NCBI GenBank assembly: GCA_032718475.1
Contig: JAUCBJ010000177.1
Span: 1-36,531, forward strand
DNA length: 36,531 bases
Source of the DNA: Nemertoderma westbladi
Lineage: Eukaryota > Animalia > Xenacoelomorpha
Direction: 5' to 3'
Part shown: piece by piece, positions 1 through 24,557 of the stretch
How the letters are laid out: the number at the start of each line of letters is the position of its first letter
How positions within the stretch are numbered: the stretch's first letter is position 1
Position numbers and translations under genes: made by a program
Notes under the pieces: generated by a model
What the model was told of the DNA's origin: nothing
Databases searched by the model: none
What the model saw: the letters and a program-made list of their open reading frames with translations, nothing else

Positions 1-35
1 CTACTACTCCTTCCCGCAGGACTCTCGAAGAGAGA

Positions 36-2522
36 ATGCCACAAGAACGAATATACCAAGTAAACGATTGGGAAGTGGAGAGCAGTGAGGTGGACGAACT
101 AACTGAGGGAACACCATACTCCTCAGATAATGACGACATCTACCAACTCTTCGATGAAGAGAACACAATCGACCTACTTACAGAAAACAAAACTTGGAAA
201 AATCAGGTGAACCTATGTCAACTGATTCGCCCATCGGAACCCATTGATTACAATGACGAACTAAATGACGAGATAGAGCGCTACAACGCTAGAACTCGGG
301 ACGAACTCACCGTACGATTCTTTACTCAAGAATTGGTAGAGCCCAATTCATACGATAAGGCTCTATCGATAGAAGAAGAAAGAGCCAAGCAAATCCAGGA
401 AACAACTACACGTTTTTTAAAGGACCAAGGTAGATATGAAATCGGCCTACCATTTCGAAAACGAGACCCTAGATTTATAAATAACAGACCCTTGGCAGAG
501 AAAAGAATCGCTCAATTACATCGACGCCTTACGGCTAATGCTTCAGCTAAAGAAATGTACCAAACTCAGTTGAAGAAATTTATAACAAAGGGATACGCGG
601 AGCGAGTACCGGAAGGAACACCAGTGACTGAGAGAACGTATTACTTAACACATCATTACGTTCCCAAACCCGGTAAACCCCACGAATTACGAGTCGTATT
701 CGATGGCTCTGCTCTATATATGGGCCAATCCCTCAATTCCGAGTTGTTACCAGGACTCAACTTACTCCAATCTTTGTTGGGAATACTTTTGAGATTAAGA
801 CAATATTCCATCGCGTTCGCCTCCGATATAGAAGGAATGTTCTTACAAGTCAAGGCGCTGGATAGAGATAGAGACAGTCTGATATTTCTGTGGTGGCCTG
901 AAGGAGACCTCAACCAGAAACCGGTAGAGTACTGGATGACCATCCAGGCTTTTGGGATCATATCAAGCCCTTCCAACGCCTGCTCCGTGGTGCGAACCAC
1001 TGCGAATGACAACCGAGACGCCTTCTCCAAAGAGGTGATAGACAACATCAAACGTAATATATACATGGACGACAATTTAAGGTCCCTTCCATCAGTAGAA
1101 GAAGCCATAGATGTCGCGAAAGGAACGGTAGAGTGTTTGAAAAGAGGTGGATTTCGACTGACGAAATTCACCAGCAACTCCCATGAGTTTCTGGAAGCGA
1201 TACCGGTAGAAGACCGAGGAGCGAAAGACCAAGACTTAATAAAGGACGATCTTCCAGAAACCAAGACGCTTGGCTTGAAGTGGGACACTGAAAGAGACAT
1301 CCTGTTTTTTCAGCTCAAACAGCGAGATAATCCAGTTCGGACCAAACGGATTTGTTTAAGCATCCTGAGCACTTATTTCGACCCATTGGGATTTATTAGC
1401 CCAGTTATATTGATTGCTCGGAGTTTAGTACAACAAATGTGGCTTGAAAACCACTCATGGGACGATCCACTTAAGGGAGAACTGTTAAAGAAATGGATGA
1501 AATGGGAAGATTCTCTACCTGCCATCGAGAGCTTTATAATTTCCCGTGCATATTTTGGTCATGTTCTCCCTACTTATTCCTATCAACTCCATGTGTTTGG
1601 AGACGCCAGCGACATGGGAATAGGTATAGTGGCATATCTGCGAGTCGAAACTCCGGATGGAATCAAGGTCGCCTTGGTTACCTCTAAGGCATTGATTAAC
1701 AACAAGTTAAAGGTTCCTCGAGCGGAGTTAAAGGCGGCTTTATACGCTACAGCCATCGGCCGGAACGTAACAGAACAAATCGACTATCCACTGGAGAAAA
1801 CTGTTTATTGGACCGACGCTTTACTCGTGTTGGAGTATATAACCAATGAAGTCTGTCAGTTCAGCGTTTTTGTTACTAACAGGGTACCTATTATTCTTAG
1901 TCGCACAAAGATAGATCAATGGAGACATTGCCCTGGTACGATTAATCCAGCCGATATCGCCTCCAGGGGAGCGACTCCACAGGAACTGATAGATACTCCA
2001 GACTGGTTGGGTGGACCCGACTTCCTGAGCAAGGAAGAGGATGAATGGCCTCCTCACCTTACTACGGCGGAGATTAGACAAGCCAAGGGAGCGGAGACAG
2101 TCAAACCTAAAACCCGGGCGAGTAAATCGAAGTTATTTAAACCGACGATCGATCTATCTGTATTACATACTTCCGGGAAAGATGCTTCGGATCCACAATC
2201 CCTCAACACAAATAAGTCTGTTGTGGAAATTAGAGATAGAGATTGGAAATCTGGAATACCAGACGTCTCGCAAGGAATCTCACCCATGCTGCAGAGAGCA
2301 ATGCATCACTACAGTTCCTGGAATCGGCTCTGTAAAGCCGTCACGTATTTAAGGAGATGTTTTCATCATCACTACTCCAGGACGAAGACCATTAGTGATA
2401 CCGCTCCATTGACATCTGCGCAAGTTCATGTTATTAAAAATTTACCCAAATATAAAACATCCGACCGGTTTCTAAAGGAGAAAATTAGTCACCAGGAGCA
2501 TGAAGAAACATCGCTTCTCTAG
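36..2522 (+). CDS. pol: Pol, RT + RNase H part (frame is open from position 3, so it is 5'-truncated by the window)
   Basis: RT: YYLTHHYV..K...LRVVFDGS, DIEGMFLQV, FGIISSPS, YMDD, LGLKWD. Pao RNase H: LHVFGDAS, PRAELKAA, YWTDA, NPADIASRG. Confidence 0.95.
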   Translation: MPQERIYQVNDWEVESSEVDELTEGTPYSSDNDDIYQLFDEENTIDLLTENKTWKNQVNLCQLIRPSEPIDYNDELNDEIERYNARTRDELTVRFFTQELVEPNSYDKALSIEEERAKQIQETTTRFLKDQGRYEIGLPFRKRDPRFINNRPLAEKRIAQLHRRLTANASAKEMYQTQLKKFITKGYAERVPEGTPVTERTYYLTHHYVPKPGKPHELRVVFDGSALYMGQSLNSELLPGLNLLQSLLGILLRLRQYSIAFASDIEGMFLQVKALDRDRDSLIFLWWPEGDLNQKPVEYWMTIQAFGIISSPSNACSVVRTTANDNRDAFSKEVIDNIKRNIYMDDNLRSLPSVEEAIDVAKGTVECLKRGGFRLTKFTSNSHEFLEAIPVEDRGAKDQDLIKDDLPETKTLGLKWDTERDILFFQLKQRDNPVRTKRICLSILSTYFDPLGFISPVILIARSLVQQMWLENHSWDDPLKGELLKKWMKWEDSLPAIESFIISRAYFGHVLPTYSYQLHVFGDASDMGIGIVAYLRVETPDGIKVALVTSKALINNKLKVPRAELKAALYATAIGRNVTEQIDYPLEKTVYWTDALLVLEYITNEVCQFSVFVTNRVPIILSRTKIDQWRHCPGTINPADIASRGATPQELIDTPDWLGGPDFLSKEEDEWPPHLTTAEIRQAKGAETVKPKTRASKSKLFKPTIDLSVLHTSGKDASDPQSLNTNKSVVEIRDRDWKSGIPDVSQGISPMLQRAMHHYSSWNRLCKAVTYLRRCFHHHYSRTKTISDTAPLTSAQVHVIKNLPKYKTSDRFLKEKISHQEHEETSLL

Positions 2523-3858
2523 CACAATGATAGATGGGTTAATACGTGTTGGAGGAAGGCTCACCAATGCGCCATTATCCTTTGACACTAAATTCCCCAT
2601 ACTCATTAGAAATCTTGAAGTACAAATCAAGATGATTGTAGATGTTCACAGCAAACTTTATCATGCTGGTAGAGAACGAGTTCTTAGCGAAATCCGAACT
2701 CGCTATTATTTTTATAAACCCCGTAGAGCTCTGAACCAAGTTCTTAGGAACTGCATACCCTGTAGGAAAGCATTCAGTAGGCCTTTAACACAGCGAGAGG
2801 CAGAATTACCTAGGGAACGAGTAAGCTTCTATGAACCACCTTTTACTAATACTGGTGTAGATTTATTTGGCCCTATTGAAGTATATCGTGCTAGGACTAT
2901 AGTCAAGAGATGGTGTGTCATCTTCGTATGCATGACTTGTAGAGCCATTCATCTCGATATGGTGAACGATCTGTCTACCAACAGCTTCGTCTTAAGTTTA
3001 CGCCGACAGATCGCTCGCTTCGGGACGAGTAATACCATGAGATCGGATAAGGGAACGAACTTCATTGGTGCCAACAACGAAATACAGGCTTACGTGAAGG
3101 ACTGGAACCAAAGACAGGTGGACGATCAGCTAAGGATAACAGCGTCTAGCTGGACCTTCAACGCCGCCGACGCCCCTTGGTGGGGAGGAAGTTGGGAGAG
3201 ATTAATTAGAAGTGTCAAGACCGCATTTCACTTTATAGTGCCATGCCGCGCGTATCTCACCGACGAACTTTTGCGGACGTTAATGGAGGAAATAGCTGCC
3301 TATCTCAACGAGAGACCGCTTATGCCAGTCTCATCGAGTCCCGATTCCCTGGAAGCGCTAACACCCGCGCACTTCCTACTGAAGAAACCTGTAGCCATGC
3401 TCCCACGATCGGAGATTGCCGACGGAGACGAATACTGCCGTCAAACTTGGCAACTTATGCAGTTGCTATCCCGTCGTTTCGCTGACCATTTCGAGAAACA
3501 TTATCTGCCCACGCTACAACTTCGAACTAAGTGGTTTGCGCAGCAAGAAAACGTCAGCGCCGGAGATATGGTGCTTATTGTAGATCCAGACCTCCCACGT
3601 AAACGGTGGCAGACAGGTCGTATCATCGAGACTCACATCTCGGATGATGGTTTAGTGCGCTCGGTAGAACTCGTCGTCATGCGGCGTAACTTCAAGAAGC
3701 CAGGTATAATCTTTGAGACGCAACAACTCAACCGCCCAGTTGGTCGTTTATGTTTACTGGAAAGAGACAGAGAACTCTCCGGAAACTATGGAAGGCAAGA
3801 CACTCTTCCCACGACCACCTCCCTAATTCCTCAAACATCTAGGGACTCCCCAACGTGA
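2500..3858 (+). CDS. pol: Pol, integrase part (out-of-frame continuation of pol; the annotated ATG is probably not a real start)
   Basis: GLIRVGGRL, HHCC finger (HSKLYH...CIPC), DDE core (GVDLFGP, SDKGTNF, PWWGGSWERLI), Pao C-terminal W..GRI.....DGLVRSV. Confidence 0.95.
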   Translation: MKKHRFSSTMIDGLIRVGGRLTNAPLSFDTKFPILIRNLEVQIKMIVDVHSKLYHAGRERVLSEIRTRYYFYKPRRALNQVLRNCIPCRKAFSRPLTQREAELPRERVSFYEPPFTNTGVDLFGPIEVYRARTIVKRWCVIFVCMTCRAIHLDMVNDLSTNSFVLSLRRQIARFGTSNTMRSDKGTNFIGANNEIQAYVKDWNQRQVDDQLRITASSWTFNAADAPWWGGSWERLIRSVKTAFHFIVPCRAYLTDELLRTLMEEIAAYLNERPLMPVSSSPDSLEALTPAHFLLKKPVAMLPRSEIADGDEYCRQTWQLMQLLSRRFADHFEKHYLPTLQLRTKWFAQQENVSAGDMVLIVDPDLPRKRWQTGRIIETHISDDGLVRSVELVVMRRNFKKPGIIFETQQLNRPVGRLCLLERDRELSGNYGRQDTLPTTTSLIPQTSRDSPT

Positions 3859-3862
3859 TACG

Positions 3863-3877
3863 TCTGGAGTGGGTGTA
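3863..3877 (+). promoter_or_regulatory. Polypurine-tract-like motif + TGTA (PPT 1)
   Basis: TCTGGAGTGGG-TGTA starts 5 nt after the integrase stop, the usual position of the BEL/Pao PPT/LTR junction. Confidence 0.55.
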
Positions 3878-3969
3878 TGACTATATTATTTTATCTATTT
3901 TATTATATTTTATATGTGAACATTATTATGTACTTTATTATAATCGTTTTTATTCAATTTTATTTAGTA

Positions 3970-5400
3970 GAAGGTTATTTTAGATTATTTGGTAGATTAG
4001 TGCAATATATTAGTGTTTATTACGTAATTACATATATATAATATATATTTAGTGTGACGGCGAGAAATAATTTTTCTCTTTCCTTACTGTCCGTATCATA
4101 TTATAAATACGTGACTACAGTAAGATGAAATGTCCGTACTTATTAAAGTACAATAAAGCCACTACTATATTTAAGTATTATTGGTAGGCAGAGTATTAGG
4201 AATGCAAAGTTCAGATCATCGTGTCTCGGCTAAACCAAGCTCTGGGTAGACCTTGGAAACGACTTGCCTCTTCACACTGACATTGCTTCGTGCGATATTG
4301 CTCTTCTACCTTATATTAAATAATACATATAGTAGCGTGATGTCCATATAACAGTAGCGTAAAACGCAAATAAATCTGTTAAACCTTTTGACCATCTGTA
4401 ATTCTAGTCGATTAAGATATCGCGGCACCCACCGATATACTTGAAAGACAAATTCTAGAATCAGTGGTTAACGTCCCCAGACAAGTTCTGGAATAAATTG
4501 GTGCCCATCTTGAATATTAATTTAATATTTATTAAAATCTGTAAAATTCAGATCCTTTAAAATTTCTAGTCAATTAAGATATCGCAGCACTTACCGATAC
4601 TCTTAAAAGACAATTTTATAGAATTAGGGATCCTCAGTCCCCAGACATGCTCTGGAATAAAAAATTGTGTCAATTTTAACATCAAATAATAAAATTCACG
4701 GGAAGAAATTTAAATTCATATTTTAAATGAATTTCATAAATTGTCGTTTTGTGCAATTTATAACATTCCCAAAATTCCATTAATTAATAGATCATGGGAG
4801 CGGAGATTCATCCTATTGAGTGTATTAGAGTGCGAGAATCTCCAACATATAGTCAATAGCCGATAAAATTAATAAAATCATGCATAAAGAGGATATTGAC
4901 AATTAAAGAATTACTATTAAATAGCATCCCAGATCTGTATGCATGAGAATTACCCTAATTCTACCGCTAGCATTCTATAATGTCACCATAGCAACACCCA
5001 CGCTAGAATTAGAAGCAAGTTAAAAGAACAATAGAAAGCTTGTCCCATTGCATAGCATAGAGAATACATAGCACACTGTTAGTATCCAAGGATACACAGT
5101 AATAATGTGACATTCTGGAAGGCACTGACTAACGGACAAATGGCCTGTATGTGTACAATTGGTGACAGTTGTGTGGAATTTATGCGTTTATAGGTGAATG
5201 TTACTGCTAAAGTATGTTTACAGTAGCTAGTCGCAATTGTAAAAGTAGCCCAACTCTCCTATAGAAAGAACCTAAGTGGATCCAAGCCTTTGGGACGGAC
5301 AGTGGAGTGACTTGTGCCGGTTATCGTTGTCGTGCTGTTGCTACATGTTGGCGTAAACACCGCGACGACGGTACATCGGCGCTGAGAATCCCACTGTCCG
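3970..5400 (+). ncRNA. Highly structured non-coding RNA region (array of stem-loops) between pol and the accessory ORF
   Basis: Stems read by eye: 4083-4124, 4162-4335, 4401-4461, 4564-4623, 4802-4843, 4878-4946, 4955-5012, 5040-5139, 5144-5194, 5296-5400; several use G-U pairs on the + strand. Confidence 0.6.
4400..4661 (+). repeat. Diverged ~100 bp direct repeat (4400-4497 / 4562-4661), each copy forming two hairpins
   Basis: TTCTAGTCRATTAAGATATCGCRGCAC..ACCGATA..CTTRAAAGACAA...GTCCCCAGACA.G.TCTGGAATAAA in both copies. Confidence 0.85.
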
Positions 5401-5479
5401 GGGGCAAAGAGAAGTAGGCAGCGACGCCCGCTCGCCTAAATATAAACTCATTTGATATTAATAAACTCAGATAGCAGAT

Positions 5480-8400
5480 ATGACGGAGTTGATAGAAGAT
5501 GATCTTGGTATTAGGGAGCGATATACTCTACCTTTGCAAGCATTTGTGGATAGCTTAATACGCGGTGAAGCCGATCCAACCATTACGGAGGACGATGGTC
5601 GTTATATCGAACCGCCGATGTCCCAAGAGCAACTTGCGCGTGAATTGGATTATCGAAAATTCACCGCTCGCTATACGAATCGTAATGGTACGTATATGGA
5701 CTTCTTAACTACCGGCCATCCTATCGATTTACATGACACGGACGATGTAGATACAGAGAGGGAAATGGTTCTATTTAAATATCATACCCAGTGGAGTCGT
5801 AACGATAAACTGAGAATAGATCACGAAAATTCTATTCGTAATAGACTGGAAAGAGAAAACGTTGAAGAACCGGATAAACGCATCGACTTCAACGAATACC
5901 TAGAATTTTTGAGAGAAACCTATCTCAACATCGCCAGTCAGCAGAACCTAGAGACTCGATATCCTCAAGGTATACATCATGACCCTGTGGTAGAACTCAA
6001 ACGGCTCTATTTCACGATGATGTATCTTACCGCCGATCATCCACTACCTGTTATCCCGGATAGTTTTGAACAAATGGAGGAATATTGCAAAACTGGAGAA
6101 CGATCACCCGCGTTTCCTCTGCAGGACGTACGTCTTTGGTATTATTGTGACGAATGCCCTAGACCCAACCAACAAACTGAAAGACATAAACATCCGCGGA
6201 GACGTTGCGCTAAACACAGTTTTACGCGTTACACTTACGGGAGTTTCGAGCGAAACCTGTTCGACGTACCACCTACGATCGCTCGTCTTAAACGATCACT
6301 GAATAAACCCATGATCAGAGTTCCGGAATACTCGGTCAGGCCTCCTCATTCCCTAGTGAGACCTCAAACTCTTGATCCTAACAGTATCACTGATCCTCCC
6401 GAACTATATTCCCTGTTCAAAGACTTAGTGTTACCCGAACAATTAATCGGTGGTGTTCCGGTAGTGGGTTCGTTAGACATTCGCCCATCCTACTTAGCTG
6501 GATTGGGACGCGGGCAGCTAATATCGCCCTTTGATCCTTACAATCGTCCAGGATTAAACCCGATGCAACCTGCCACGGAAGTCGAGGAGAGCGTTATAAG
6601 AAACGCTTTAGACGCTATTCGACAGAAGATCGGAAAGGGAACACAAGATTGTTTAGAGAAACGTAAATTACAACAACAAGTCCAATCGGTGAAGGAGTTA
6701 GCCTTGCCACAGTTCGATAGAGAAATCCAAAACCTCGAGGAAGACATCGAGCTTGGACGCACGTATTCTCTACAAGAATTTTTAGATGAACGCTTACAGA
6801 GACAAGCGGAAGAAAATCTACTCGAGGAGAAACACACGAAACTGGAAGAGAGAGAAGAAGCCGCTTTAGCCCAACCTGAAGCTCAAATCCTTATGACGGA
6901 CCTCTACTCTCAAACCATTCGTCATCCCTCGATGATTCCATATTTCGGAGACAAACTCTTCGCGACGATACAACCTCAACCGGTTGATATCAGTACAGGA
7001 TCGCAAAATCTTATCGCTGACGCCCCTATGTTACAGCGTCCGCCGATAGAGGCCGCTCGTGTTGACGGTATACTCGTTGAACCTCCGGACAATCGAGCGG
7101 ATCTTGTCCGTCGTATGGTACACGATGTCAACATACGCGCTAGACCTTTACAGAACTCGTTTTATGGGATTAAAGACCACCCTTATTACGTTAATCTGAC
7201 TCAATATTATATGGTAAAACCAGAAGACCCGACGCATAATTTAAAGTTTCTACCACTAATAAATCCTCTAGACATTGTCGAACTCGAACAATTGCAGAAA
7301 CATCTGGATCAGTTAGTAAAAGTAAACTCATTTAGAAAACCATATAACATTTCTAGAATCGAGAAAGATATAGAACCCCCTTATAATCTCGATGGATTTA
7401 TTAAAACTCGATTAGTCCATTGGAATCTAGATGTATTATTTGAAGAAGAGAAAATACAAAGATATGGAAATGTGGAGACGTATACCACTCGGCACATGAA
7501 GTATAGTGATCTCCCTGACGCTAACCAATGCACCACCTTGTGGCATCCAGTAGGGATGACCCTAGAGAACGCCACCAAGGAGTGGAATGAAACTCTTAAT
7601 GTTATTGAGATGTATGGAGTTGTCACCTACGATAATGAAGGTAGCGTTCCGGTCGGAGAACTAGGAACTACGCGCATGATCCACATACGCGGATTAGCTG
7701 GTTCTACCCACGTGTTTACTCGAGCGTGTTCCGACGTGATTGATTATTCCTTTGAAACTCTCACCGAAACACAAAGGAATCTCCGACATGGACAATTCGA
7801 ACTCGCGCAGCGTTACGTCATTGACACCGAACGCAAACCGGCCATGGGTATCGATGGATCGATGTTACCCCAGCCCGTACTCGAGATGTTGTTCAACGAA
7901 AGAATCCTTAAAATCGGCTCAGCTGTTTATGGAGATCTCCAAAACGACTTTCGGAATATGGAGAACATTCCATACCCTTTCGTTGATACTCAGCTGATTG
8001 CTCCCTGGGCAGAAGGTCGAGGTTTCTTCCGCACCATGTATGCTAATACGTCTAGCAACATTACAAAGGTGCAACGAACTTCCATCGGACATCTTGCCTT
8101 TCAGGAATACGGATGGAATTTCAAAGTCGGAAATCCCATTAACTATCAACAAGTATACGGAGACCATTATTCTCGATTATACTTTGATGGACCATTGACC
8201 GCACCTGGCGCCGTGTATAGCTTCATGAGTGTTCCACTCCGTCCCTCCTTAGCTATATACACGATCTTTGAAAACACCGCACTTGCCGGTTGGCTAGCCG
8301 ATGTGTGCAGTCGTACTATACGCGCCCATCCATTAATACTTGGGACCAAACTCGCTAAGCTAGATGAACATAATAAATTCATCCGCTTTGAATGTTTCCG

Positions 8401-8893
8401 GCGATTTTTAACCCCGTTCCGCAACGTGGATAGCCAATTTAAAGACCGCGCTTTGACCAAGCTCAGCCTAAGAAACTCAGCTGCAGAGAAGTTGGATAGC
8501 GCTGGATTCGCCATTTTCCAAGAGATTTGTATATCGAACTTGCACTCCTCTGTTATACAAAGACCTCGAATCCCCACAGGTTATTCTGTCGTGGAAATTC
8601 AGACAATAGGTCCACCTGAAGAGACAGACACGCCCACCTCAGCTATGCACTTGGAAGACGAACCAATATGTCTAGAATCTGAGGAGATTCAACCTATCGC
8701 GCCCCGGAACAGCGACAACGATTACATCATAGAATGGTATCAAGGTCCACAGTGTCTCACTGCGTACGATTATCGGCATGCCAACTATGTTTCTAGGCAA
8801 CGTTGTCGGTTATATGGACACAAACGTCCGCTGTTCCTATTTCCAAGAACAACCGACTATGGAACTTTATTGCGCATATTGCAGACTCAATAA
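5480..8893 (+). CDS. Intronless 1137 aa accessory protein: Cys/His motif, coiled coil, DEDDy 3'-5' exonuclease (WRN-exo/EXD2/Mut-7/RNase D-like)
   Basis: ExoI VVTYDNEG (D718, E720); LPQPVLEMLFNERILKIGSAVYGD (ExoII D819); FVDTQ; TSIGHLA; ExoIII-like YTIFE; also YYCDEC...HKH....C and a Q/E/L/K-rich helical segment. Confidence 0.75.
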   Translation: MTELIEDDLGIRERYTLPLQAFVDSLIRGEADPTITEDDGRYIEPPMSQEQLARELDYRKFTARYTNRNGTYMDFLTTGHPIDLHDTDDVDTEREMVLFKYHTQWSRNDKLRIDHENSIRNRLERENVEEPDKRIDFNEYLEFLRETYLNIASQQNLETRYPQGIHHDPVVELKRLYFTMMYLTADHPLPVIPDSFEQMEEYCKTGERSPAFPLQDVRLWYYCDECPRPNQQTERHKHPRRRCAKHSFTRYTYGSFERNLFDVPPTIARLKRSLNKPMIRVPEYSVRPPHSLVRPQTLDPNSITDPPELYSLFKDLVLPEQLIGGVPVVGSLDIRPSYLAGLGRGQLISPFDPYNRPGLNPMQPATEVEESVIRNALDAIRQKIGKGTQDCLEKRKLQQQVQSVKELALPQFDREIQNLEEDIELGRTYSLQEFLDERLQRQAEENLLEEKHTKLEEREEAALAQPEAQILMTDLYSQTIRHPSMIPYFGDKLFATIQPQPVDISTGSQNLIADAPMLQRPPIEAARVDGILVEPPDNRADLVRRMVHDVNIRARPLQNSFYGIKDHPYYVNLTQYYMVKPEDPTHNLKFLPLINPLDIVELEQLQKHLDQLVKVNSFRKPYNISRIEKDIEPPYNLDGFIKTRLVHWNLDVLFEEEKIQRYGNVETYTTRHMKYSDLPDANQCTTLWHPVGMTLENATKEWNETLNVIEMYGVVTYDNEGSVPVGELGTTRMIHIRGLAGSTHVFTRACSDVIDYSFETLTETQRNLRHGQFELAQRYVIDTERKPAMGIDGSMLPQPVLEMLFNERILKIGSAVYGDLQNDFRNMENIPYPFVDTQLIAPWAEGRGFFRTMYANTSSNITKVQRTSIGHLAFQEYGWNFKVGNPINYQQVYGDHYSRLYFDGPLTAPGAVYSFMSVPLRPSLAIYTIFENTALAGWLADVCSRTIRAHPLILGTKLAKLDEHNKFIRFECFRRFLTPFRNVDSQFKDRALTKLSLRNSAAEKLDSAGFAIFQEICISNLHSSVIQRPRIPTGYSVVEIQTIGPPEETDTPTSAMHLEDEPICLESEEIQPIAPRNSDNDYIIEWYQGPQCLTAYDYRHANYVSRQRCRLYGHKRPLFLFPRTTDYGTLLRILQTQ

Positions 8894-9707
8894 CTTGCAT
8901 ATTTTTGCGGTTTGCCCTCAATTTATGACTCAATGTCACCATTGTCAACTAAAGGGACACGCCAGTTTCGATTGCCCTTTTAATCACGATTTGGAAAGCG
9001 TAGATGAAATGATCACACTACGTTACATCAGAGCTTGGGAAGCGAACGCTGATTTACATTGTGATTCGCGCCATCGCTATTATCCCGGACGCGCTTACGA
9101 AGGAGTTTATGCGTTCCATCCTTATCTATTCGCTTCGGTCGAACAGAAATCACGCATATCGAGTTACGAGCTACTGAAGCGCGTCGGAGAATGTATTTCA
9201 ACCAAATTCGTACGCAAATTTCTCAGGAGTGTTAATCCTAGCGACCTTCATTCCTATAACTTAATCAATTATATCCGTCAGGATCCGGACTATGGAGACT
9301 TATTTGTTAACTCACACCCCGAGTTACAGGAAGTATATCGATGGCCTTACGAATACCGAGCCCGCGAACGCGAGTTGGGAAGAACCATTAAACCCCGGAG
9401 GTTTCTAACTGCCTATGGTCCACCCACGGCCCTCGTTCAGACCACTTGTAAAGGACCCGTAAGAGCGGCTGTCTTAAAACGAGCTCTCAAAGCCGTTAGA
9501 CCCCTCTCCCCCGACGTTGATGTCAATCAACCCGGTACTTCGACTGGCGGATACACCGACCATAATCCTACACCCTCTGATGCAATCATATTGCACCCTT
9601 CACCCAGGAGTTATAGCCCTCCTTGTAAAGTGGCTCGCCCCAAAGAGAAAAGGACTCTGGCTAGCTTTAAAAAACTGCGTAAACGCCGTCCACGCAAGAA
9701 AGACTAA
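8778..9707 (+). CDS. Zinc-knuckle protein with a basic C-terminus; probably the frameshifted C-terminal part of the 5480 ORF
   Basis: CAYC-x5-H-x4-C and CHHC-x4-H-x4-C; ends KKLRKRRPRKKD; overlaps the upstream ORF in the +1 frame. Confidence 0.7.
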   Translation: MPTMFLGNVVGYMDTNVRCSYFQEQPTMELYCAYCRLNNLHIFAVCPQFMTQCHHCQLKGHASFDCPFNHDLESVDEMITLRYIRAWEANADLHCDSRHRYYPGRAYEGVYAFHPYLFASVEQKSRISSYELLKRVGECISTKFVRKFLRSVNPSDLHSYNLINYIRQDPDYGDLFVNSHPELQEVYRWPYEYRARERELGRTIKPRRFLTAYGPPTALVQTTCKGPVRAAVLKRALKAVRPLSPDVDVNQPGTSTGGYTDHNPTPSDAIILHPSPRSYSPPCKVARPKEKRTLASFKKLRKRRPRKKD

Positions 9708-9774
9708 CTGTTTAGAGTATTTACATATATTAGAAACTGTGATTTTTGTATATTTATAAACTTGAATCCCATTT

Positions 9775-9789
9775 TCTGGGAGCGGTGTA
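9775..9789 (+). promoter_or_regulatory. Polypurine-tract-like motif + TGTA (PPT 2)
   Basis: TCTGGGAGCGG-TGTA, ~70 nt after the last accessory ORF; resembles PPT 1. Confidence 0.55.
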
Positions 9790-10950
9790 AAAGCTTTTGC
9801 GGATATACTCAGTCCCCCTCGCCCGCAAGGTACCGTTATAGGTGTTTTAACGGACATAAAAGTCATTCTTCTATATGTGTGCTTTGGCGGACATGGTAAG
9901 GCAAAAAACCCGCAATGCGACAAATACCCTGGCACAGCTTAGCCTTGATGATTCAGATTACGACATCTAACAGCTGGTTGCTGACATGGAAACGGCCATT
10001 GGACACATGGTTCTTTGTTTAGCTTAACAGCCAATCAGAGCGATTTTTTCTGTCGATGTGGAGATAATTGGCCGATCGTGCTAGGAGTGTTCAGTCTTAC
10101 TGTTTTTCTTGATACTGTTGTGTTGTTTCTATCTAGGCCAGGAACACCGGCTCTAGAGTCAATTCGTTTTCAGACTTTAGAAGAAACATTAGTAGGCTTT
10201 AGATTATAGAGCGTATAACTGTTATCATAACATAACATATCATTCATAACAACCTTAACAACTCAATCGGCACATATATTGTCATATCATATCTTAACCT
10301 ACCGTCTTAATGCTTTTTACTGTTGTCATAATTTGTATCAGTTGGTTGAATATTATTTGGAGAACATTTATAAAGAACCCAAATTTCCCAATTTTCTTGA
10401 TACACTACAGGTTAGAGAGACAGGTTACATATAGCGATTGCGACTTATATTATTGTGGTTTGTAGTGAATTTAATGCTATTTGATAAGCACTACATGAGT
10501 CAGTTGCTGTTCTCTTTATATATGATAAAATTCATTGACGGTCGGCAAATTAGTGTGCAGTATTGTGTGTTACCGGTAGTGTGCATGATTGTGACTGATA
10601 ACTAAGCATTTCCTAAAGAATGCGCCTCATACGTGAATCATAAGCCTTACCGACTTACCGTTGTGATTAGTATAAGTCATATCTCTGTTTACCTAGATAG
10701 AGCGCCACGTCCTAAAGGAACTGTTAATATTTCCCGAAAGTGAATAATATTAGTCAGAAATTATTTATTAACGATCAATCGAATAATACAGTAAGCTTAC
10801 ACTGCAATAACAATCTAAGCCCTCAGAATCCAGTCTCCCGGGTATATCCAGCGGGTGAATGGACGCGCACTAGGCTGGCTTCTGCTAATGTTGTGTATAT
10901 TGGTATTAAATATTTGTCAATTTCTAAAGTCTATTTATAAACCAAAAGAC
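9786..10950 (+). mobile_element. Candidate 3' LTR (right boundary not determined)
   Basis: Starts TGTA after PPT 2; CCAAT at 10031; non-coding. No 5' LTR in the window to confirm it; the end coordinate is a guess. Confidence 0.35.
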
Positions 10951-12611
10951 ATATAAATTTTGGCAGGTTAAACTGCTAAAGGTCTTCAAAAGCGCGTACA
11001 AAAGTTTAGAAATTTCCCAAGTTGAATTTGCGTGTGGCCTTCGAGAAGCTAATATAATAGCAGTTAATTAATTAAGTTGGTTAGGGTAAAAACAGCATTT
11101 TCAACATTACTTTTAATGGAAATTAATTATTTTAGAGTATAAGATTTAAATAATTATACTTAAAAATTATACAACTATATTCCCCATACCCCATTCTATT
11201 ATAGTTTTTAATTAGTTCAAGTGATTTGCATTAAGAAATGTGTTTTTAATTGATCTAAACGTAATTAAGTTATCAAAATGCCCTCGTCACTCTATAACTC
11301 CCTCATTCCTTGGCATGCTTGCTATTGCCTACAGTTTGGGAACCAGTCCAATCATATCACCACTACTTGGCAATGATAATTACATCTGTAGGACATAGGC
11401 ATGCACTACTAGTGTAAGGTGACGTACTGATAAGCCAACTTGCTTATTATTTATCTCGCAAAATGATTGCCTGAGTATTTAATCCTGATTCTTTAGAATA
11501 ATTAGCTAAATAATTTCGTTGAGGTGTTGACATGATAAATTAATATTTCAGTATCTATACTATAGGCTATAAGGTAAGTTTTAATATTTTTTACAAATTG
11601 GGTCGCATCTACGCCTAAAATTTCATGTCTGCATGAAATTCAAATCTGCAATTCATTAATCCTCTGTGCGCCTTTGGGTTGGGGTGGTTCGGTCCGGCAG
11701 TCGTGCAGATTAAGAGGGGGTTGAAGGAACTTTTCTCTCTTCTTTGATTTATTCTTATTGGCAGTTTGGTCAAATCTCTTATTTATTTATTTAAATTTCT
11801 GGTTTGGTTTTGTTAGATTTTGGGAGAGAATTGCTCAATTTTAATCTGTATCTGATAACTGACCATCGTGCTGCGCGAAGGCCGCACGAACGTGTAAGGA
11901 TTATCTGCCTATTAAACAGTTCATTGTAAGGTAACAAGAAAAATATATACGAATAACAGTATATTTAAAATGGAAATAATGTTGCAATTTTTCCGATCGA
12001 ACAGTAATAATTAAGTAGTTTTTTTTATACGTAGAATTTAATATTGAATTTAATTAATCTGAAATTCATAATTAAAAGCATTTCACAATTTGTAAACATA
12101 AAAGCTCCAATGATATAAATTCTTAATTTTTATAATGTCCTCTATTAGAATTTATTCGATTTGCATTTATGTTTAGCGACAGTTGACAATCTCTGACACT
12201 TGAAGAAAGGAATGTACTCCTACAGTTTAGACCCTAGTAGTCAATGTTCAAATAGTTTTAGCTTTAATCATGCAACCCTGTATAAACCATAACCCAATAT
12301 TGTACTGCCTAGAATAATGTCACCTGATAGTCTACGAATTTATCTAATACTGTTGGTTATGGTAAATTGATGCCTTACATGATTTCACCCAATTTCTCCA
12401 CTCCTTACAGCGTTTGAAGCACGTTCGTTCTACCTGCCATTATGATTATTACATTAATTAATTATTATAGCTTCTCCAGCTACTAGTAAAGGAGAGGTCA
12501 GGATTTCCAATTACAATGATGTGTCTGTTGTCATATTTCAATGAGGCCTACGAGCGAAGTAAAAAAACTCTTACATTAGTTCGACCCCTCTCCCCATTCC
12601 TTCCATTTTCG

Positions 12612-12882
12612 AATAAAATTACATACTCTAAGTAGTAATCTAGTACTTAATAAAATTACATACTCTAAGTAGTAATCTAGTACTTAATAAAATTACATAC
12701 TCTAAGTAGTAATCTAGTACTTAATAAAATTACATACTCTAAGTAGTAATCTAGTACTTAATAAAATTACATACTCTAAGTAGTAATCTAGTACTTAATA
12801 AAATTACATACTCTAAGTAGTAATCTAGTACTTAATAAAATTACATACTCTAAGTAGTAATCTAGTACTTAATAAAATTACA
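12612..12882. repeat. Perfect 37 bp tandem repeat, 7.3 copies
   Basis: Unit AATAAAATTACATACTCTAAGTAGTAATCTAGTACTT, identical copies. Confidence 0.97.
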
Positions 12883-13821
12883 GATCTCGCCTCTGTTAAA
12901 AACGCCCGTAATTTTTGGTCATGGCAGTGATGGCAGTCATGGCAGTGCATTAAGGAACACAATTAAGGAAGCAATAAGGGACAAAATTTACTGTTTAACC
13001 AACAATTTTTTTAATTTACAAAATTGAATCTATTGGGCAATTTATGGGGCAATAAGGAACCACATTAATTATAATTAATGATAATTTAATGTATAGTAGT
13101 TGTAGAATATGTGTAGGGCTCTCATGCATAGATAATCATAAAATTATAATATGCATACTGTGGCATGTGGAGTGGGACGGCCATACCTGAGCGGGAGTTT
13201 ACTAAAAAAATATATTCTCCGTAAGAGCCTTGGTATATGCCATTTTTTGAAAATTATATAAATTACACAAAACATGGATTGTACCGAACAGCCGTTCAGT
13301 ACTTACACCAGGGGTGTCGCGAGGTGTTACAAAAACGATGTAGGACAATTCGGTAGCGGACAATTCAGTCCCATTTATTTAGTGTTTTGGGACAGACCGA
13401 ATAGTCCGGGACCGAATTAAATTAAGACATAAATTTAATAGCTATTTATTCTTGGATTTATACATATTAATATGCTAAATACTGTTGTATAGTAAGTAGC
13501 TAAATATTTGTAATTCAAATTTCATAGTATTTTGTTTTTGGTCGGAATTATAGATTAAGAGAGATTCACAGTTTCCCTTAATGCATAACATGCCGTTCCT
13601 TGATGACCTTCTAGGTGGAGTATTAGGGAATCATTTTATAATTTTTTAAAAGCCGATAACTCAGTGGAAGAAGAAACAAAACCCGAAGATCAGTAAACCA
13701 GGGGTTGATTATCATGACAACTTCCCAAGTTCAGACTATTTATCACTTCCGTAGGACCGCTACTTAATGACAATACGGATTGTAAGTTGAAAATGAATTT
13801 TTATATTTGTATAAAAATTAT

Positions 13822-13890: not shown

Positions 13891-15102
13891 CTAAATAAAT
13901 TCCACACCTTCGTATTTAATATTTCCGGCTATTTTAGTCTCGGTAACTAGAACGTTCCCGTCCACGTTAAATACCGTTATATATGTCGAAACATCGCCCG
14001 AGTTCTCCTCCGACTTCAAGGCGACGACGAGTTGTTCCTGCGAGTTCGGAACGAACTTAAACGAGGAGAAACCGCGGAAGAGGTTGAGCGGAGTGACTTC
14101 GGCCACATTGAGTCGGGTGAACGATTCGTCGGCGGTTATCATTATGTTACCGGCGCGTCGCTCGTCGTCCATCTCGTTGTATCGGAATCGCGACACTCTG
14201 CGGGGAAGGAAGATCCACCGGTCCCGCGGGGCCGACCAGCATACGGCCTCGTGGATGATGTATCCGGGGGCCGCGATCCCGGCGGCCGAGCGTTGCGAGT
14301 CGTAACGCGTCGACCAGTCCATGTGGACCACCTGCCCGGTCACCGAGATTGCCTTTACCCACTGCGGGTCGCGATTCAACGGCTCCCCTTCCGGGGTCGT
14401 CCACTCCTTACCCAACCCGCCCACGTACAGAACACGATCCTTTACGGTCATCCACTCTGCTTTGAACCCTTTACTAACAGTCCCGTCACCGTCTGCGAGA
14501 ATAACCCAAGGATAAACGCGATTCCCGACTACCTTATAAACGATTCCAGTTCGATCGTCCACCGTTAATAATTCCCCGTTAAACACGACGAGTTCCGATA
14601 ACTCCATCCCTCGCCCGCCTAACGAATACTTCGACTCCAACCGCAACGGCTCTCGATCCCAGACAACCGCGACTGTCTTCAGATCATAGGAAACCTGCAG
14701 ATCACCTTTCAGTAAATAACTGACCCATAAATTTGGTGCATCTTTTACTTTGGAATTTTGATCAAGGTCGGAAACTATCGCAATTCTGTAGGTATAGCCA
14801 AAAGAGTTCCGCAACGGTAAGGATAAAGGGTAGGTGTAGTTGTAATTCAATACCGGTGTAGAGATTGTGTTACTAGGAGAACTCGTAGATGGAATTAATA
14901 TAAGTATGAGACATATAAAAGAGAAAACGAATAATATAAATATAATTCTCGAATGTTTCGTTAGAAGACGAGTGATCCTTGTTGACATATCCGACCTGTG
15001 GTGGATCCCCAGAGGGGCACGCACTTTCGCATTCCAGTCTCGCATTTTGTCGTCAGCCAAATTGAAATTTTTATCGGAACACAACAAAGACGTATCTGTC
15101 AT
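13891..15102 (-). CDS. CANT1: Soluble calcium-activated nucleotidase 1 / apyrase (type II membrane anchor), intronless CDS
   Basis: N-terminal TM helix; IAIVSDLD, GRGMELSEL, DDRTG, GFKAEW, GGLGKEWT, HEAV, LPRR, GFSSFKF, KSEE, KYEGVEFI-stop. Confidence 0.95.
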   Translation of the reverse strand: MTDTSLLCSDKNFNLADDKMRDWNAKVRAPLGIHHRSDMSTRITRLLTKHSRIIFILFVFSFICLILILIPSTSSPSNTISTPVLNYNYTYPLSLPLRNSFGYTYRIAIVSDLDQNSKVKDAPNLWVSYLLKGDLQVSYDLKTVAVVWDREPLRLESKYSLGGRGMELSELVVFNGELLTVDDRTGIVYKVVGNRVYPWVILADGDGTVSKGFKAEWMTVKDRVLYVGGLGKEWTTPEGEPLNRDPQWVKAISVTGQVVHMDWSTRYDSQRSAAGIAAPGYIIHEAVCWSAPRDRWIFLPRRVSRFRYNEMDDERRAGNIMITADESFTRLNVAEVTPLNLFRGFSSFKFVPNSQEQLVVALKSEENSGDVSTYITVFNVDGNVLVTETKIAGNIKYEGVEFI

Positions 15103-16347
15103 TATGGTTGCTGGGCTGGTAAACCCTCTCGGTCAAACTTTACACAAACACAAGCGAACTGATAGACTTGCAGTCTTTGTCAGTTCAGCAGTTAGTTGTG
15201 GTAAAAAATGAACAAACTCAACATTTTCACACTTCTGCACTTATGTAACTGGTTCTGGTAGTGGTAGGCCTACTACAGCTGTACAGTAGGCCTACTACAG
15301 TATATAGTTTACAGTATAAGCATAAGGGCAGAAGGGTATCGGTACATGATGGTAGGCCCAGATTGCGGAACTATGTGGTTGTGTGAATTGTGAATATCGG
15401 AAACTTAAGGTGTGACTATTTAGAGAACCATTCTCCTATATTGGAGTCCATGTTGGGCTCTAACTCAGTAACTGCTAAGGATACCAAATCTCTGGATGTC
15501 ACTCACACAATAAACTGATAAAGCTGGGCCGTGTTCTCTGTGTTACTGTGTTAAGTGCAACTCACACATCGCCAACCAGACCATGAACCAGACACTACTG
15601 TATAATATTGGAGGTGTTCCATTTGTCCCTCCAAGTTTGAGATTTGAATAGTGCCTCCTCCGCGCTTCGCAGCACATTGCTTTCGCGGAGAACCACCCTA
15701 TGCACAAATAAAACTGTAGTACGGTACGCATATTTACAATTGGGGTGTCGTTTCAGCCTATGGCTGTGGCTGTATGGAAGGAATTCTGGGGTTCTAATTG
15801 GATGTTCCTTCAATAAGCTCACCTCATTGGCTAACACTCTCCCATAGCCAAAAGGTGTGTCGGTTCAGCCTAATTGCAAAAAGGGATGTCGCTTGGGGAA
15901 ACTGTCTGAGTGAGTATCGGTAGGCCTACTGCTGTACTGCTGTACTGACAGAAAAAAATATTAAAAGCTAAAGCTCCTGACAGCCTGCTGAGCCCATCAG
16001 TATCTGCCTACGCCTGTAGGCTAGGTGCTAGGTCAATAAAATGGTAATAGGTCAGTAAACTATGGTAACAGGTATAAATAGGTAGGCCTAGGGTAAGCGG
16101 ATTGTGAGCTTCAATGCGTGGTCAGTTATACAGTAGGTACTGTAGACCCTTTCTGCCTTTGACCTTAAGACTGATAGAGGTAGCTCCAGCAGGATAGTCC
16201 TATTGTTTTTAAATAAGACTACGTCTGGTTGTCACTACTGCACTGTCCGTACTCGCTGACATTTAGGATGGCTAAAACGTCTGTCCTTATCTGATCTGAT
16301 CTGATCTGATCTGACGGTATCTGATACTTGTTCCACCTTGGTTCAGA

Positions 16348-16640
16348 GCGCACCTTGGTGTAGTGGTTATATTGAATTCACATCTCTCGGAGGTTGTGGG
16401 TTCAACCCCGGCATGGGGCCAAGGTAGTTTTCGTTTCGGCACGAATGTTTTGAAGGGTTTAGCAAGGAATCTCTGCCTTGCATCCTTAAATGGTAGCTAA
16501 ATGAGTACTGGACTTTCTGCCTATGTCAGCATGTGAACTTTCCCCGGTATTCCCCTTAAACCCGGGGGGGGGGGGGGGTCAATATAATACCTCCCGCTCT
16601 GAAACTAACGATACTAACTATAAAGACTAACTGAAACGAA
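16348..16640 (+). mobile_element. tRNA-derived SINE
   Basis: A box TGGTGTAGTGG (16356), B box GGTTCAACCC (16399), TAAATGAGTAC core (16498), ACTAA-rich tail. Confidence 0.65.
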
Positions 16641-17361
16641 CTAAAAGGAATTCAAATAAATTAGCTAGAAATTTTAAATTTGTTTTTAGCGGATGGTGCC
16701 AAAATTTGGTGCCGGTCCATGTGAAGAATACCGCCCATGTGAAGAATACCAGGATTTCACTTTTCGCGGTCGACTTTTATTGGAATTTTATTTTTGAAGA
16801 TTTTAATTCTTTTTTAATTTATCTTTATTGAGTGTATTATAGAGCTTATTTATGTGTTATAACCTGCACATATACTAATTCGTTTATTGTTTTGTTTATA
16901 TTCAGCCAGTCAGCCCTTCTGTAACCTGTGTTTTTGGTGAAAACCTGGTATTCTTCACATGGGGGTAACTGCAAAGTGAAATAAAACGGCAGAAAGTCTG
17001 GTATTCTTCGCCCATGTGAAGAATACCAGGATTTCATTTCTCGGTCGATTTTTTATTGGTCGATATTTTTTATTAAATTTATCTTTATTAAGTGTTTTAT
17101 GCGCGTGTGCGATGTCCTTGATTTTTTGAGGGGGGTGATCTATTGATCAGTCAGTCGGACGGTTAGTAAGAAGGTGGGTGTAAACAAGCCGCCGCGGTAA
17201 CATATTCTCCTTTCCCTCAATTGGTAGGTAACAAAATCGTTTATTATTGTTTTGGTTAGAAAACCCTGTCTCGGTAACCTGCTCCTTTCCCTCAATTTGT
17301 AGGTAACAACGTCGTTTATTGTTTTGGTTAGAAATTACAGCCGCTGTAACCTGGTCTTTTC

Positions 17362-18528
17362 GGGTTTGACTAAATACGCCACCGACAACCACCGACACCT
17401 TTCGCATACCACCGACTACCACCGACAACAAAAGACACAAACCGACACAAACCGACAGGTAAAATCACAAACCGACAGTATACTGACAACTTCGGCAATG
17501 TTAGTAAACTATTTCAGTACATGATTATACAATTTTTATTTCCAGTCCAAATATTTATAACAAATTATACCCAGTAAAAAATCCCTATGCGTAACGCATT
17601 AGTGCCACATCAGCACATGCAACATTCGTAAAAGGCTGAAAGGTGCGTGGAATGTTATTTAAGATTCGTGAAGCCTTCGTCAGTGGTTCGTCAGTCCGAA
17701 TAATTTAGGTAACGAATGTGTCTGTGCGTATAGTATTCCAGTATTCGTATCGCATGTGAGATTTCACTTGTCAAATATATTCGTGGCTCATCATTCGTGG
17801 CACATGCGATACGAATGCTTCCACTCCACGCAAAAAATAATTCGTGGTTCATTCGTTCGTGGCACATGCACATCCGATACGAATGCATAGCCGCGGCACG
17901 CTTAAAATTTTTCGTGGTCCATTCGTGACGTGACGCATGCGATACGCGTGCAAAGCATTCTCAATTAGAGTACATACTCTAATTTGGCCAATCACAATTC
18001 GGCAAATAATCGAACATGGTGTTATTAGTTAGTACCGGTAGCTCTCCCCCATAGAGTACACTATGCTCTCCCCCCTTGTTACTAAGTCAGCTAGTTTCCA
18101 TGTGCTATATATTTAATGGGTTACCCAGTAATTCTTAACTCCCGTTTATTATTTTGGTTCCCCCATCGGACAGTATGTAATAATAATAATAATAAAACAT
18201 ATATTTATAGCGCCTTTACCAAGAAGGTTCAAAGGCGCTTTGAAAGCTTATGTAAACCTGTTCCCTTTACAAACATGCTTTATATAATATCTAGAGGTAA
18301 TGTACTGTAGGCTATACATATTTGTAGTATTAGTAGTCCTACTGTATTTGGACTGGAAATAAAAATTGTATAATCATGTACTGAACTGCTGAAATAGTTT
18401 ACTAACATATTGCCGCGAAGTTGTCGGTTTGTGATTTTACCTGTCGGTTTGTGTCGGTTTTGTGTCTTTTGTTGTCGGTGGTATGCGAAAGGTGTTGGTG
18501 GTTGTCGGTGGCGTATTTAGTCAAACCC
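17362..18528. mobile_element. Mutator/Foldback-like MITE (element C)
   Basis: ~190 bp TIRs (17362-17553 / 18345-18528) starting GGGTTTGAC, with internal ACCGAC repeats; perfect 9 bp TSD GGTCTTTTC (17353-17361 / 18529-18537). Confidence 0.88.
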
Positions 18529-23671: not shown

Positions 23672-24114
23672 ATGTGTTGGCAAGCAGTGTTTTTCGAGGT
23701 GTTTGTTATTATATATTTATAGGAAGGCCTAGTATATATAATATCCTATAATGGCTATAATCCCAATAGAATAGCCTATATAATAGGGTGGCCTAGTGGT
23801 TGTTGTCTCGGCTTCCACCTTCGAATCCGACACCACGCTCAAGAGACCCAGTAAAGTCGAAACGCGTATGTGGTTTGGAGAGATATGGGATATTGATAAT
23901 AATAATTTCAATTAAAATTACGCGATTCCTAAATTTGTACACTACCCAGTTAAAAAGTACGCATGTGATGGGATTAGTCCTACAATTGCGCCAATAAAAG
24001 ATAAGTTGTTTTCGGTAAAATAAACTTATCATTCGAGGTTATAAGACCCCCAGATCCCTTCCTATAAATGTCAAATAATTATGGTTTATTATTGAATAAT
24101 TATGCCATCGTTTT

Positions 24115-24372: not shown

Positions 24373-24557
24373 ATAACACCAAAAGCATTTAGTTACCTTT
24401 AAGGCGATCGTGAACAGTAACAGTAGTAACAGTAACAGTAAGGACTGTACATTATTTGTAACGGACAGTATTCATTGGCCTACCGGCAGACCGGTAAACT
24501 ACTGTATCATGTCCAAGGCCTACTAAGTCTTTTAGTAGGCCTTAGATCATGTCTCAC

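What the first reader, a model, noticed from the sequence alone, without database searches (positions are those of the whole stretch)
3970..5400. ~1.4 kb array of stacked RNA hairpins between pol and the exonuclease ORF
Seen: about ten consecutive stem-loops with 6-10 bp closing stems, e.g. CTTACTGT/ACAGTAAG (4083/4117), CTACTATAT..GTATTATT / AATAATAC-ATATAGTAG (4162/4319), GGAGATTC/GAATCTCC (4802/4836), TCATGCATA/TATGCATGA (4878/4938), CTAATTCTA/TAGAATTAG (4955/5004), ACTGT..GTATCC/GGATAC-ACAGT (5075-5100). There is also a long-range pairing of ~3971-3991 with ~4367-4388. The hairpins mostly differ in sequence, so this is not a simple repeat. Inference: an element-encoded structured ncRNA next to an RNA exonuclease could be an IRES, a packaging/export element, a Dicer decoy, or a polycistronic small-RNA precursor trimmed by the cargo enzyme.
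Basis: partly seen in the sequence, partly recalled or inferred. Interest (0 to 1): 0.82.

Follow-up and report, generated by a model that had tools for sequence, protein, structure and literature searches.

The report
Folded RNA spacer in cargo retrotransposon
An animal jumping gene of the BEL/Pao type carries a 1.6-kb non-coding spacer between its replication gene and an extra, likely exonuclease gene; the spacer is predicted to fold into many hairpins that other copies of the element tend to keep, and it likely helps the long genome RNA leave the nucleus and survive, which is untested.

Summary
The hairpins are real and probably under selection, but the function is not shown. The window holds the 3' part of a multicopy BEL/Pao LTR retrotransposon: pol ends at 3858, a 1621-nt non-coding spacer follows, then a DEDDy-like cargo ORF (5480-8893), a zinc-knuckle-like ORF and the LTR (from 9786). 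Three of four 400-nt spacer tiles fold at z -2.8 to -4.9; 4 of 33 control tiles do. The 39 listed differences among family copies break fewer predicted sense-strand pairs than random placement (about 10 vs 15.5, P 0.002-0.004). No Rfam family, tRNA, ribozyme core or Pol III B box was found, and no RNA run was listed. Best reading (0.4): a cis-acting export and stability region of the genome-length RNA, working like retroviral CTE/DR/RSE elements without being a CTE. IRES and small-RNA precursor remain open.

The parts
3..2522 (+). pol, first part (reverse transcriptase and RNase H region), open at the window's 5' edge
   Evidence: ORF; Pfam Peptidase_A17 (Pao) E 2.6e-36, RVT_1 weak E 0.066
2500..3858 (+). 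pol, second part (integrase, DUF5641); pol is broken into two frames near 2500-2522 in this copy
   Evidence: Pfam DUF5641 E 1.7e-20, Integrase_H2C2 E 1.5e-7; best relatives about 40% identical
3859..5479 (+). non-coding spacer, 1621 nt, 21 ATGs, no ORF over 68 codons on either strand
   Evidence: covered in all 30 bins by contigs of runs X3, X4, X5
3864..3876 (+). G-rich, polypurine-tract-like motif just after the pol stop; complementary to the apical loops of both modules and to 4993-5000
   Evidence: complementarity matched by 17 of 300 shuffles, a lead only
3880..4060 (+). U-rich tract (51% U, 6% C) with no folding excess, directly downstream of the pol stop
   Evidence: tile z 0.05
   Evidence: z -4.0, 0 of 200 shuffles
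   Evidence: four helices with pair probability over 0.8
4388..4505 (+). module 1: 83-nt irregular hairpin with AAGACA at 4445-4450, then a 5-bp hairpin (4477-4491), AATAAA, and a possible 6-bp pseudoknot (4424-4429 with 4500-4505)
   Evidence: z -2.8; pairs and loop duplex; motif
4551..4672 (+). module 2: same predicted fold, AAGACA at 4607-4612; basal stem differs from module 1 by two two-sided and one one-sided pair-keeping changes; pseudoknot only 4 bp here
   Evidence: z -2.65; pairs counted by hand after a one-base shift of alignment A3
4795..4803 (+). 9-nt exact copy of the 3' polypurine tract, possible internal plus-strand primer site
   Evidence: another 8-nt copy lies at 2087 inside pol
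5154..5241 (+). long G-U-rich hairpin; four listed family differences turn A-U into G-U pairs
   Evidence: 37 pairs, 9 G-U on +, 21 pairs on -; z only -1.7
5296..5400 (+). 105-nt GC-rich hairpin, 44 pairs, the most stable element, 80 nt before the cargo ATG
   Evidence: -59.7 kcal/mol, z -5.8 on +, -3.6 on -
5441..5446 (+). TATAAA 39 nt before the cargo ATG, candidate internal promoter
   Evidence: a consensus match only
5480..8893 (+). cargo ORF3, 1137 aa, with a DEDDy-like 3'-5' exonuclease region at about 7547-8350
   Evidence: no Pfam or PDB hit; atlas lead 0.88; one relative P0001; similarity to a PF01612 protein on L002
8778..9707 (+). cargo ORF4, 309 aa, zinc-knuckle-like N-terminus; overlaps ORF3 in another frame, whereas P0001 has both kinds of domain in one chain
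   Evidence: E 0.07, weak; lead
9777..9788 (+). 3' polypurine tract and LTR start (TGT at 9786); LTR end not established
   Evidence: two X5 contigs of 1170 and 1556 nt match only 9786-9973 and go on in unlike sequence

Best explanation
The spacer is likely a cis-acting control region of the element's genome-length RNA: it lies between the pol stop and a cargo ORF, is predicted to fold on the sense strand into a chain of modules, and would recruit host proteins that export and stabilise an RNA with a 3' tail of at least 5.9 kb. Shown: position, non-coding state, folding excess over shuffles, avoidance of pair-breaking differences among copies, the duplicated module with AAGACA. Inferred: the U-rich tract after the stop shields the RNA from nonsense-mediated decay (as the RSV RSE does); the two AAGACA hairpins bind the export receptor NXF1 (as CTE halves or the RSV direct repeats do); the cargo ORF is made from its own short-leader transcript starting near the TATA at 5441, so that the structures mark only the full-length RNA for export or packaging.
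For: Folding. Selection: 39 listed family differences break 10.2-10.4 predicted pairs on + against 15.4-15.7 expected, P 0.002-0.004; at paired sites 10 of 16 keep pairing on +, 5 of 13 on -; none of the listed differences inside the two modules breaks a helix of their stand-alone folds. Modules fold alike on their own, identity is clumped in blocks (20/21 and 23/25 against 4/15 and 6/13, P 0.004). AAGACA occurs twice in the spacer, once per module; it is the NXF1-binding motif of CTEs (PMC4330393, PMC4174252). RSV direct repeats flank the captured src gene and bind NXF1 (PMC7551171); RSE sits right after a stop with a 7-kb tail (PMC5580461). 21 upstream ATGs and no pyrimidine-tract splice acceptor argue against scanning or splicing into ORF3.
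Against: No RNA data. AAGACA is a 6-mer in an A-rich region (0.18-0.28 per kb elsewhere), its two copies come from one duplication, and its GAC is predicted to be paired. The modules are tandem hairpins, not the single two-fold symmetric stem of a CTE. The U-rich tract has 6% C, unlike a PTBP1 site (recalled as CU-rich). Avoidance is also seen on the minus strand (P 0.02-0.03) and the excess of pair-keeping changes is not significant (P 0.12-0.36). Only 40 of 332 differences were shown. 4 of 33 control tiles fold as well.
Confidence: 0.4

Rival explanations
1. The 3' part of the spacer is an internal ribosome entry site that lets ORF3 be translated from the same RNA as pol; the 105-nt hairpin and the A/U-rich stretch before the ATG place the ribosome.
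For: Strongest hairpin ends 80 nt before the ATG; 21 upstream ATGs exclude simple scanning and no canonical acceptor was found.
Against: No Rfam IRES match at E up to 10; a TATA box sits 39 nt before the ATG; an IRES would not explain the modules 800-1100 nt upstream.
Confidence: 0.17
2. The hairpins are precursors of small RNAs or decoys for Dicer/Drosha or ADAR, possibly trimmed by the cargo nuclease.
For: Several long imperfect hairpins of 58-105 nt; in the modules the 5' arm is the most conserved part (20 of 21); a two-hairpin dumbbell on the minus strand at 4872-5018 has z -3.75.
Against: Module hairpins carry a 6-7 nt one-sided bulge; a second conserved block lies outside the hairpin; no Pol III B box on either strand; no Rfam match; nuclease identity is weak and its third motif has Glu where Asp is usual (motif recalled).
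Confidence: 0.13
3. The spacer is the response element for the cargo protein itself: the nuclease-like and zinc-knuckle-like product binds or trims the folded RNA to control export, packaging or decay, in the manner of a Rev/RRE pair.
For: Cargo and spacer lie side by side in a multicopy family; the only relative joins an exonuclease-like domain to nucleocapsid-like zinc knuckles.
Against: No binding or activity data; no second lineage with both parts was found to test co-occurrence; adjacency follows from capture alone.
Confidence: 0.1
4. The signals act as DNA or in reverse transcription: promoter/enhancer palindromes for ORF3, an internal polypurine tract, or remains of an older LTR that began right after pol.
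For: PPT-like motif plus TGT just after the pol stop, an exact 9-nt PPT copy at 4795, three TTCnnGAA palindromes and a TATA box; pair-breaking differences are avoided on both strands.
Against: No significant similarity between spacer and present LTR region; G-U-rich long hairpins fold on one strand only; compensatory changes in the module's basal stem keep pairing, not sequence.
Confidence: 0.1
5. Neutral AT-rich sequence with a local duplication; stems arise by chance and slippage.
For: 4 of 33 control tiles fold as well; 1 of 10 control regions has as many perfect stems; first tile shows no excess.
Against: Three adjacent tiles; avoidance of pair breaking P 0.002-0.004; compensatory changes between modules; 5296-5400 at z -5.8.
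Confidence: 0.1

Closest known systems
Constitutive transport element (CTE) of MPMV/SRV-1 and MLV gamma-CTE
   Same: Two units, each a stem-loop bearing AAGACA, in a genome-length retroelement RNA (PMC4330393, PMC4174252, PMC7551171; passages).
   Different: CTE is one 150-175 nt stem with two loops in two-fold symmetry; here two separate tandem hairpins, each followed by a second hairpin, with GAC predicted paired; binding untested.
Rous sarcoma virus direct repeats (DR) and RNA stability element (RSE)
   Same: Direct repeats next to a captured gene; an element just after a stop codon in front of a multi-kb tail (passages).
   Different: No sequence relation shown; both repeats lie upstream of the cargo; tract is AU-rich, not C-rich.
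musD transport element (MTE)
   Same: Multi-stem RNA element of an LTR retrotransposon with kissing and pseudoknot contacts (PMC5767303, passages); its place downstream of pol is recalled.
   Different: Rodent retrovirus-derived; no Rfam or sequence match; here the spacer is 1.6 kb and precedes extra ORFs.
DEDDy ORF3 of bdelloid rotifer Juno and Vesta LTR retrotransposons
   Same: 3'-5' exonuclease-like cargo downstream of pol (PMC5408684, passages).
   Different: Different host and superfamily (BEL/Pao here); cargo is 1137 aa plus a zinc-knuckle-like ORF; the passages read describe no folded spacer ('intergenic', 'IRES', 'untranslated' occur 0 times).

Membership tests
Belpaoviridae (BEL/Pao) | Pao-type pol with RT, RNase H, integrase in that order | tested here: met
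   Peptidase_A17, Integrase_H2C2, DUF5641 above cut-off, RVT_1 weak
Belpaoviridae (BEL/Pao) | Polypurine tract of about 10 nt before a 3' LTR | tested here: met
   9777-9785 then TGT at 9786; two contigs start there with unlike flanks
Belpaoviridae (BEL/Pao) | gag, protease, 5' LTR and tRNA primer-binding site | not testable with these tools
   outside the window; no genome held; not seen among loose ends
Belpaoviridae (BEL/Pao) | [quoted passage not shown] | tested here: not met
   9.8 kb from mid-pol to the LTR start alone; extra ORFs are not env-like by Pfam. A descriptive range; phylogenetic membership rests on pol.
CTE (NXF1-binding) | AAGACA in each of two units | tested here: met
   4445 and 4607
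CTE (NXF1-binding) | Motif exposed in an internal loop | tested here: inconclusive
   AA and last A unpaired, GAC predicted in a 3-bp helix between a 2x2 loop and a bulge
CTE (NXF1-binding) | Single 150-175 nt stem-loop with two-fold symmetric loops | tested here: not met
   two tandem hairpins 162 nt apart
CTE (NXF1-binding) | Binds NXF1 and exports intron-containing RNA | not testable with these tools
   needs binding and reporter assays
RSV RSE-like stability element | Directly after a stop codon with a multi-kb 3' tail | tested here: met
   5928 nt from pol stop to LTR start, if the RNA is not cut earlier
RSV RSE-like stability element | PTBP1-type pyrimidine tract (CU-rich, recalled) and protection from decay | tested here: inconclusive
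   51% U but 6% C; function not testable
Rfam families (ribozymes, IRES, miRNA, tRNA-like) | Match to a curated model | tested here: not met
   2 matches at E 2.7, far under gathering score, of 4227 families; ARAGORN 0 genes; lone hammerhead core at 4637 (-) lacks stem II and is changed in many copies
Pol III small-RNA cluster (BLV or foamy virus type, recalled) | A and B boxes with T-run terminators | tested here: not met
   0 B-box matches on either strand
DEDDy 3'-5' exonuclease (ORF3) | PF01612-type domain with Exo I, II, III acidic residues | tested here: inconclusive
   no direct Pfam hit; Exo II region aligns with a PF01612 protein, E 1e-6 pairwise; Exo I read by eye; Exo III has Glu; model pLDDT 30
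sORF2/FAST-like small membrane ORF | 63-107 aa, MGxxxS/T start, polybasic patch after the membrane stretch | tested here: not met
   54-aa hydrophobic frame from 3877 has neither motif; its ATG is not kept in loose ends of X4 and X5

The most novel reading that the evidence does not exclude
A 'complex' BEL/Pao retrotransposon: a separately expressed nuclease and zinc-knuckle accessory protein paired with its own 1.6-kb folded response region in the genome RNA, which also holds a convergently evolved, duplicated NXF1-type export hairpin. That would be retrovirus-style RNA regulation (Rev/RRE plus CTE logic) in an invertebrate Belpaovirid.
Probability: 0.1. Interest if true: 0.85.

Novelty: new variant of a known kind. 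Interest (0 to 1): 0.52.

Why it matters
Replication of BEL/Pao elements is described as poorly understood (ICTV profile), and my searches found no report of a DEDDy-like cargo or a folded post-pol RNA region in this group. If the reading holds, it shows how an element that gains about 6 kb of cargo keeps its genome RNA exportable and stable, and it gives two short, covarying modules that can be tested directly for NXF1 binding. It also bears on the open question of what DEDDy cargo does in retroelements.

Tried and rejected
No host genome is held, so no full-length copies could be aligned. No RNA holder listed; this says nothing on expression. Rfam, ARAGORN and motif scans for ribozymes, Pol III boxes and splice sites found nothing usable; ARAGORN at lowered thresholds gave only noise-level calls. 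A model of the two modules found no third copy in the window (next best E 5.2). The spacer is not a detectable second copy of the LTR. Self-encoded primer idea (Cer7, recalled): the primer-binding site was not seen, LTR end unresolved, paper search gave nothing relevant. Loop-to-3866 pairing: 17 of 300 shuffles match it, kept as a lead. The 60-codon stop-free run after the pol stop: 61 of 2000 shuffles match it, frame not kept in other copies. Internal poly(A) signal: AATAAA follows both modules but is changed in module 2 in most X4 and X5 depth. Summed contig depth rises from 5275 on in X5 and at 9600-9720, but the tool states depth is no copy number; not used. Homologue searches for the cargo: 0 hits among 3661 candidates, 1 among 1.84 billion representatives, 0 in viral contigs, 2 unrelated-context loci in metagenomes; integrase scan of metagenomes 0 of 53. 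Structure prediction failed (pLDDT 29.6), so no fold search was run. Three answered look-ups of earlier findings were empty. Host not placed: its CANT1-like protein is 47-57% identical to all 120 listed hits.

Full report
Setting. The first 10 kb of the window is the 3' part of a BEL/Pao LTR retrotransposon in an unplaced animal. ORFs 3-2522 and 2500-3858 carry the Pao Peptidase_A17, integrase zinc-finger and DUF5641 families; the nearest integrase relatives are about 40% identical. After the pol stop come 1621 non-coding bases (3859-5479; longest stop-to-stop frame 68 codons), a 1137-aa ORF, a 309-aa ORF, a polypurine tract and an LTR that starts at 9786, where two contigs of run X5 begin to match and are flanked by unlike sequence. 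The family is multicopy: 4512, 127, 140 and 3 contigs from four runs of four studies lie on the spacer (4 of the 8 listed runs were laid there). No genome is held and no RNA holder was listed.

Observation. All named arms are exact complements. Perfect stems of 8 bp or more are about three times as many as in shuffles (12 vs 4.3, 0 of 200), though 1 of 10 control regions matched that. Sense-strand 400-nt tiles give z 0.05, -3.8, -2.8, -4.9 across the spacer; 0 of 11 controls and 4 of 22 reach -2.8. So the signal is real in 4260-5459 and absent on average in the first 400 nt, apart from a three-hairpin domain at 4059-4159 (z -4.0). In 120-nt windows the signal is patchy and some coding windows also reach z -3.5 to -3.7.

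Selection. One search showed 40 of 332 differences; I dropped one that lies in ORF3 and scored 39 against pair probabilities of this copy. They break 10.2-10.4 pairs on the sense strand against 15.4-15.7 for random sites with the same base (P 0.002-0.004, 2000 placements), and 11.1-11.3 against 14.7-15.4 on the antisense strand (P 0.02-0.03); the excess of pair-keeping changes is not significant. At sites paired with probability over 0.5, 10 of 16 keep pairing on + and 5 of 13 on -. The strand preference is therefore suggestive, not proven, and the 4955-5012 hairpin is better on the minus strand.

Two modules 162 nt apart are 81% identical over 98 nt and fold alike on their own (z -2.8 and -2.65): an irregular hairpin of about 83 nt with a 10-nt loop, a short linker, a 5-bp hairpin and an A-rich stretch. 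Identity is clumped: 20 of 21 in the upper 5' arm and 23 of 25 in the second block, 4 of 15 and 6 of 13 in the basal arms (P 0.004; flanks chosen by me). The basal stems still pair in both; after a one-base shift of the alignment, the pairs show two changes on both sides and one on one side. Each module has AAGACA on its 3' arm, the only two copies in the spacer. Module 1 can form a 6-bp pseudoknot, module 2 only 4 bp, and both loops can instead pair with a G-rich motif just after the pol stop (17 of 300 shuffles). A model of the two found no third copy. A 105-nt, 44-pair hairpin (z -5.8) ends 80 nt before the cargo ATG, followed by a small hairpin and a TATA box.

Cargo. ORF3 has no Pfam or PDB hit. 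An atlas search by features gave 3'-5' exonuclease clusters at 0.88, a lead only. The single relative among 1.84 billion representatives (P0001, 30% over 175 residues) has a weak PF01612 score and nucleocapsid-like zinc knuckles; a PF01612 protein on L002 aligns with the middle motif. ORF4 has a knuckle-like start (weak). Activity is untested and the structure model failed.

Mechanism. Gaining the cargo left the pol stop at least 5928 nt from the LTR. Retroviruses with such RNAs use cis elements: the RSE after the RSV gag stop (PMC5580461, passages), direct repeats beside src that bind NXF1 and the CTE (PMC7551171, passages), AAGACA loops (PMC4330393 and PMC4174252, passages), and the musD element with long-range contacts (PMC5767303, passages). 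The spacer has the matching anatomy: a U-rich tract right after the stop, then folded modules, two with AAGACA. With 21 upstream ATGs, no pyrimidine-tract acceptor and a TATA box 39 nt before the ATG, ORF3 most simply has its own transcript, which would leave the structures on the full-length RNA only. I put this at 0.4. It works like these elements by analogy; it fails the CTE test on symmetry and is inconclusive on loop exposure. Rivals: IRES 0.17, small-RNA precursor or decoy 0.13, response element of the cargo protein 0.10, DNA-level or reverse-transcription signals 0.10, neutral 0.10.

Known versus new. DEDDy cargo is known from rotifer Juno and Vesta LTR elements and Terminons (PMC5408684 and PMC6431247, passages). 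The ICTV profile (PMC8742986, whole text) and a BEL/Pao survey (PMC3118150, passages; supplements not read, they hold element sequences that could bear on this) name only env-like extras. Seven searches (listings and abstract starts, apart from the papers named) found no BEL/Pao with such cargo or such a spacer, but the library cannot match the slash spelling as one word, lacks most subscription papers, and Repbase and GyDB were not searchable. The small hydrophobic frame after the stop does not meet the sORF2 criteria (bioRxiv 10.1101/2025.03.14.642691, passages; supplements closed). BLV and foamy-virus small-RNA clusters, Cer7, Rev/RRE beyond the passages read, and the Exo motif labels are recalled.

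Verdict. A real and probably selected RNA structure in an unusual, cargo-bearing BEL/Pao family; a new variant of a known kind, function inferred. Interest 0.52; boldest open reading 0.10 at interest 0.85.

Noticed in passing
window 2500-2522 and 8778-8893: pol is in two frames between RNase H and integrase, and the two cargo ORFs overlap in different frames, while the only cargo relative P0001 has both domain kinds in one chain; decay of this copy or programmed frameshifting cannot be told apart.
   Followed up: partly
window 2087, 4795 and 9777: The 3' polypurine tract core recurs exactly twice inside the element; the copy at 4795 may lie near the middle of the full element and could be a central plus-strand primer site.
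   Followed up: partly
window 9857-9999 and about 5794: One low-depth contig of run X6 runs from inside the LTR into sequence matching early ORF3 (read by eye): a likely deletion derivative lacking gag, pol and the spacer.
   Followed up: partly
window 4494-4660: One X3 contig skips 165 nt, leaving a single module; its depth (178) is tiny beside the region's summed depth.
   Followed up: partly
window 13891-15102 (-): Intronless host gene for a CANT1-like apyrase (PF06079), 47-57% identical to listed animal proteins.
   Followed up: partly
window 27132-27270: Strong inverted repeat (31-nt arms; tile z -9.6 on both strands), probably a MITE-like element.
   Followed up: no
window 15722-20191, 17361-18529, 26023-27807: Several pairs of long inverted repeats, up to 131 nt at 93%, suggesting nested DNA transposons or MITEs.
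   Followed up: no
window 12575-12919, 24089-24398, 27914-28821, 31516-32620: Tandem arrays with 37, 12/24, about 60 and 35 nt units.
   Followed up: no
window 26467-26835 (-): 122-aa fragment that reads like a LINE reverse transcriptase (by eye).
   Followed up: no
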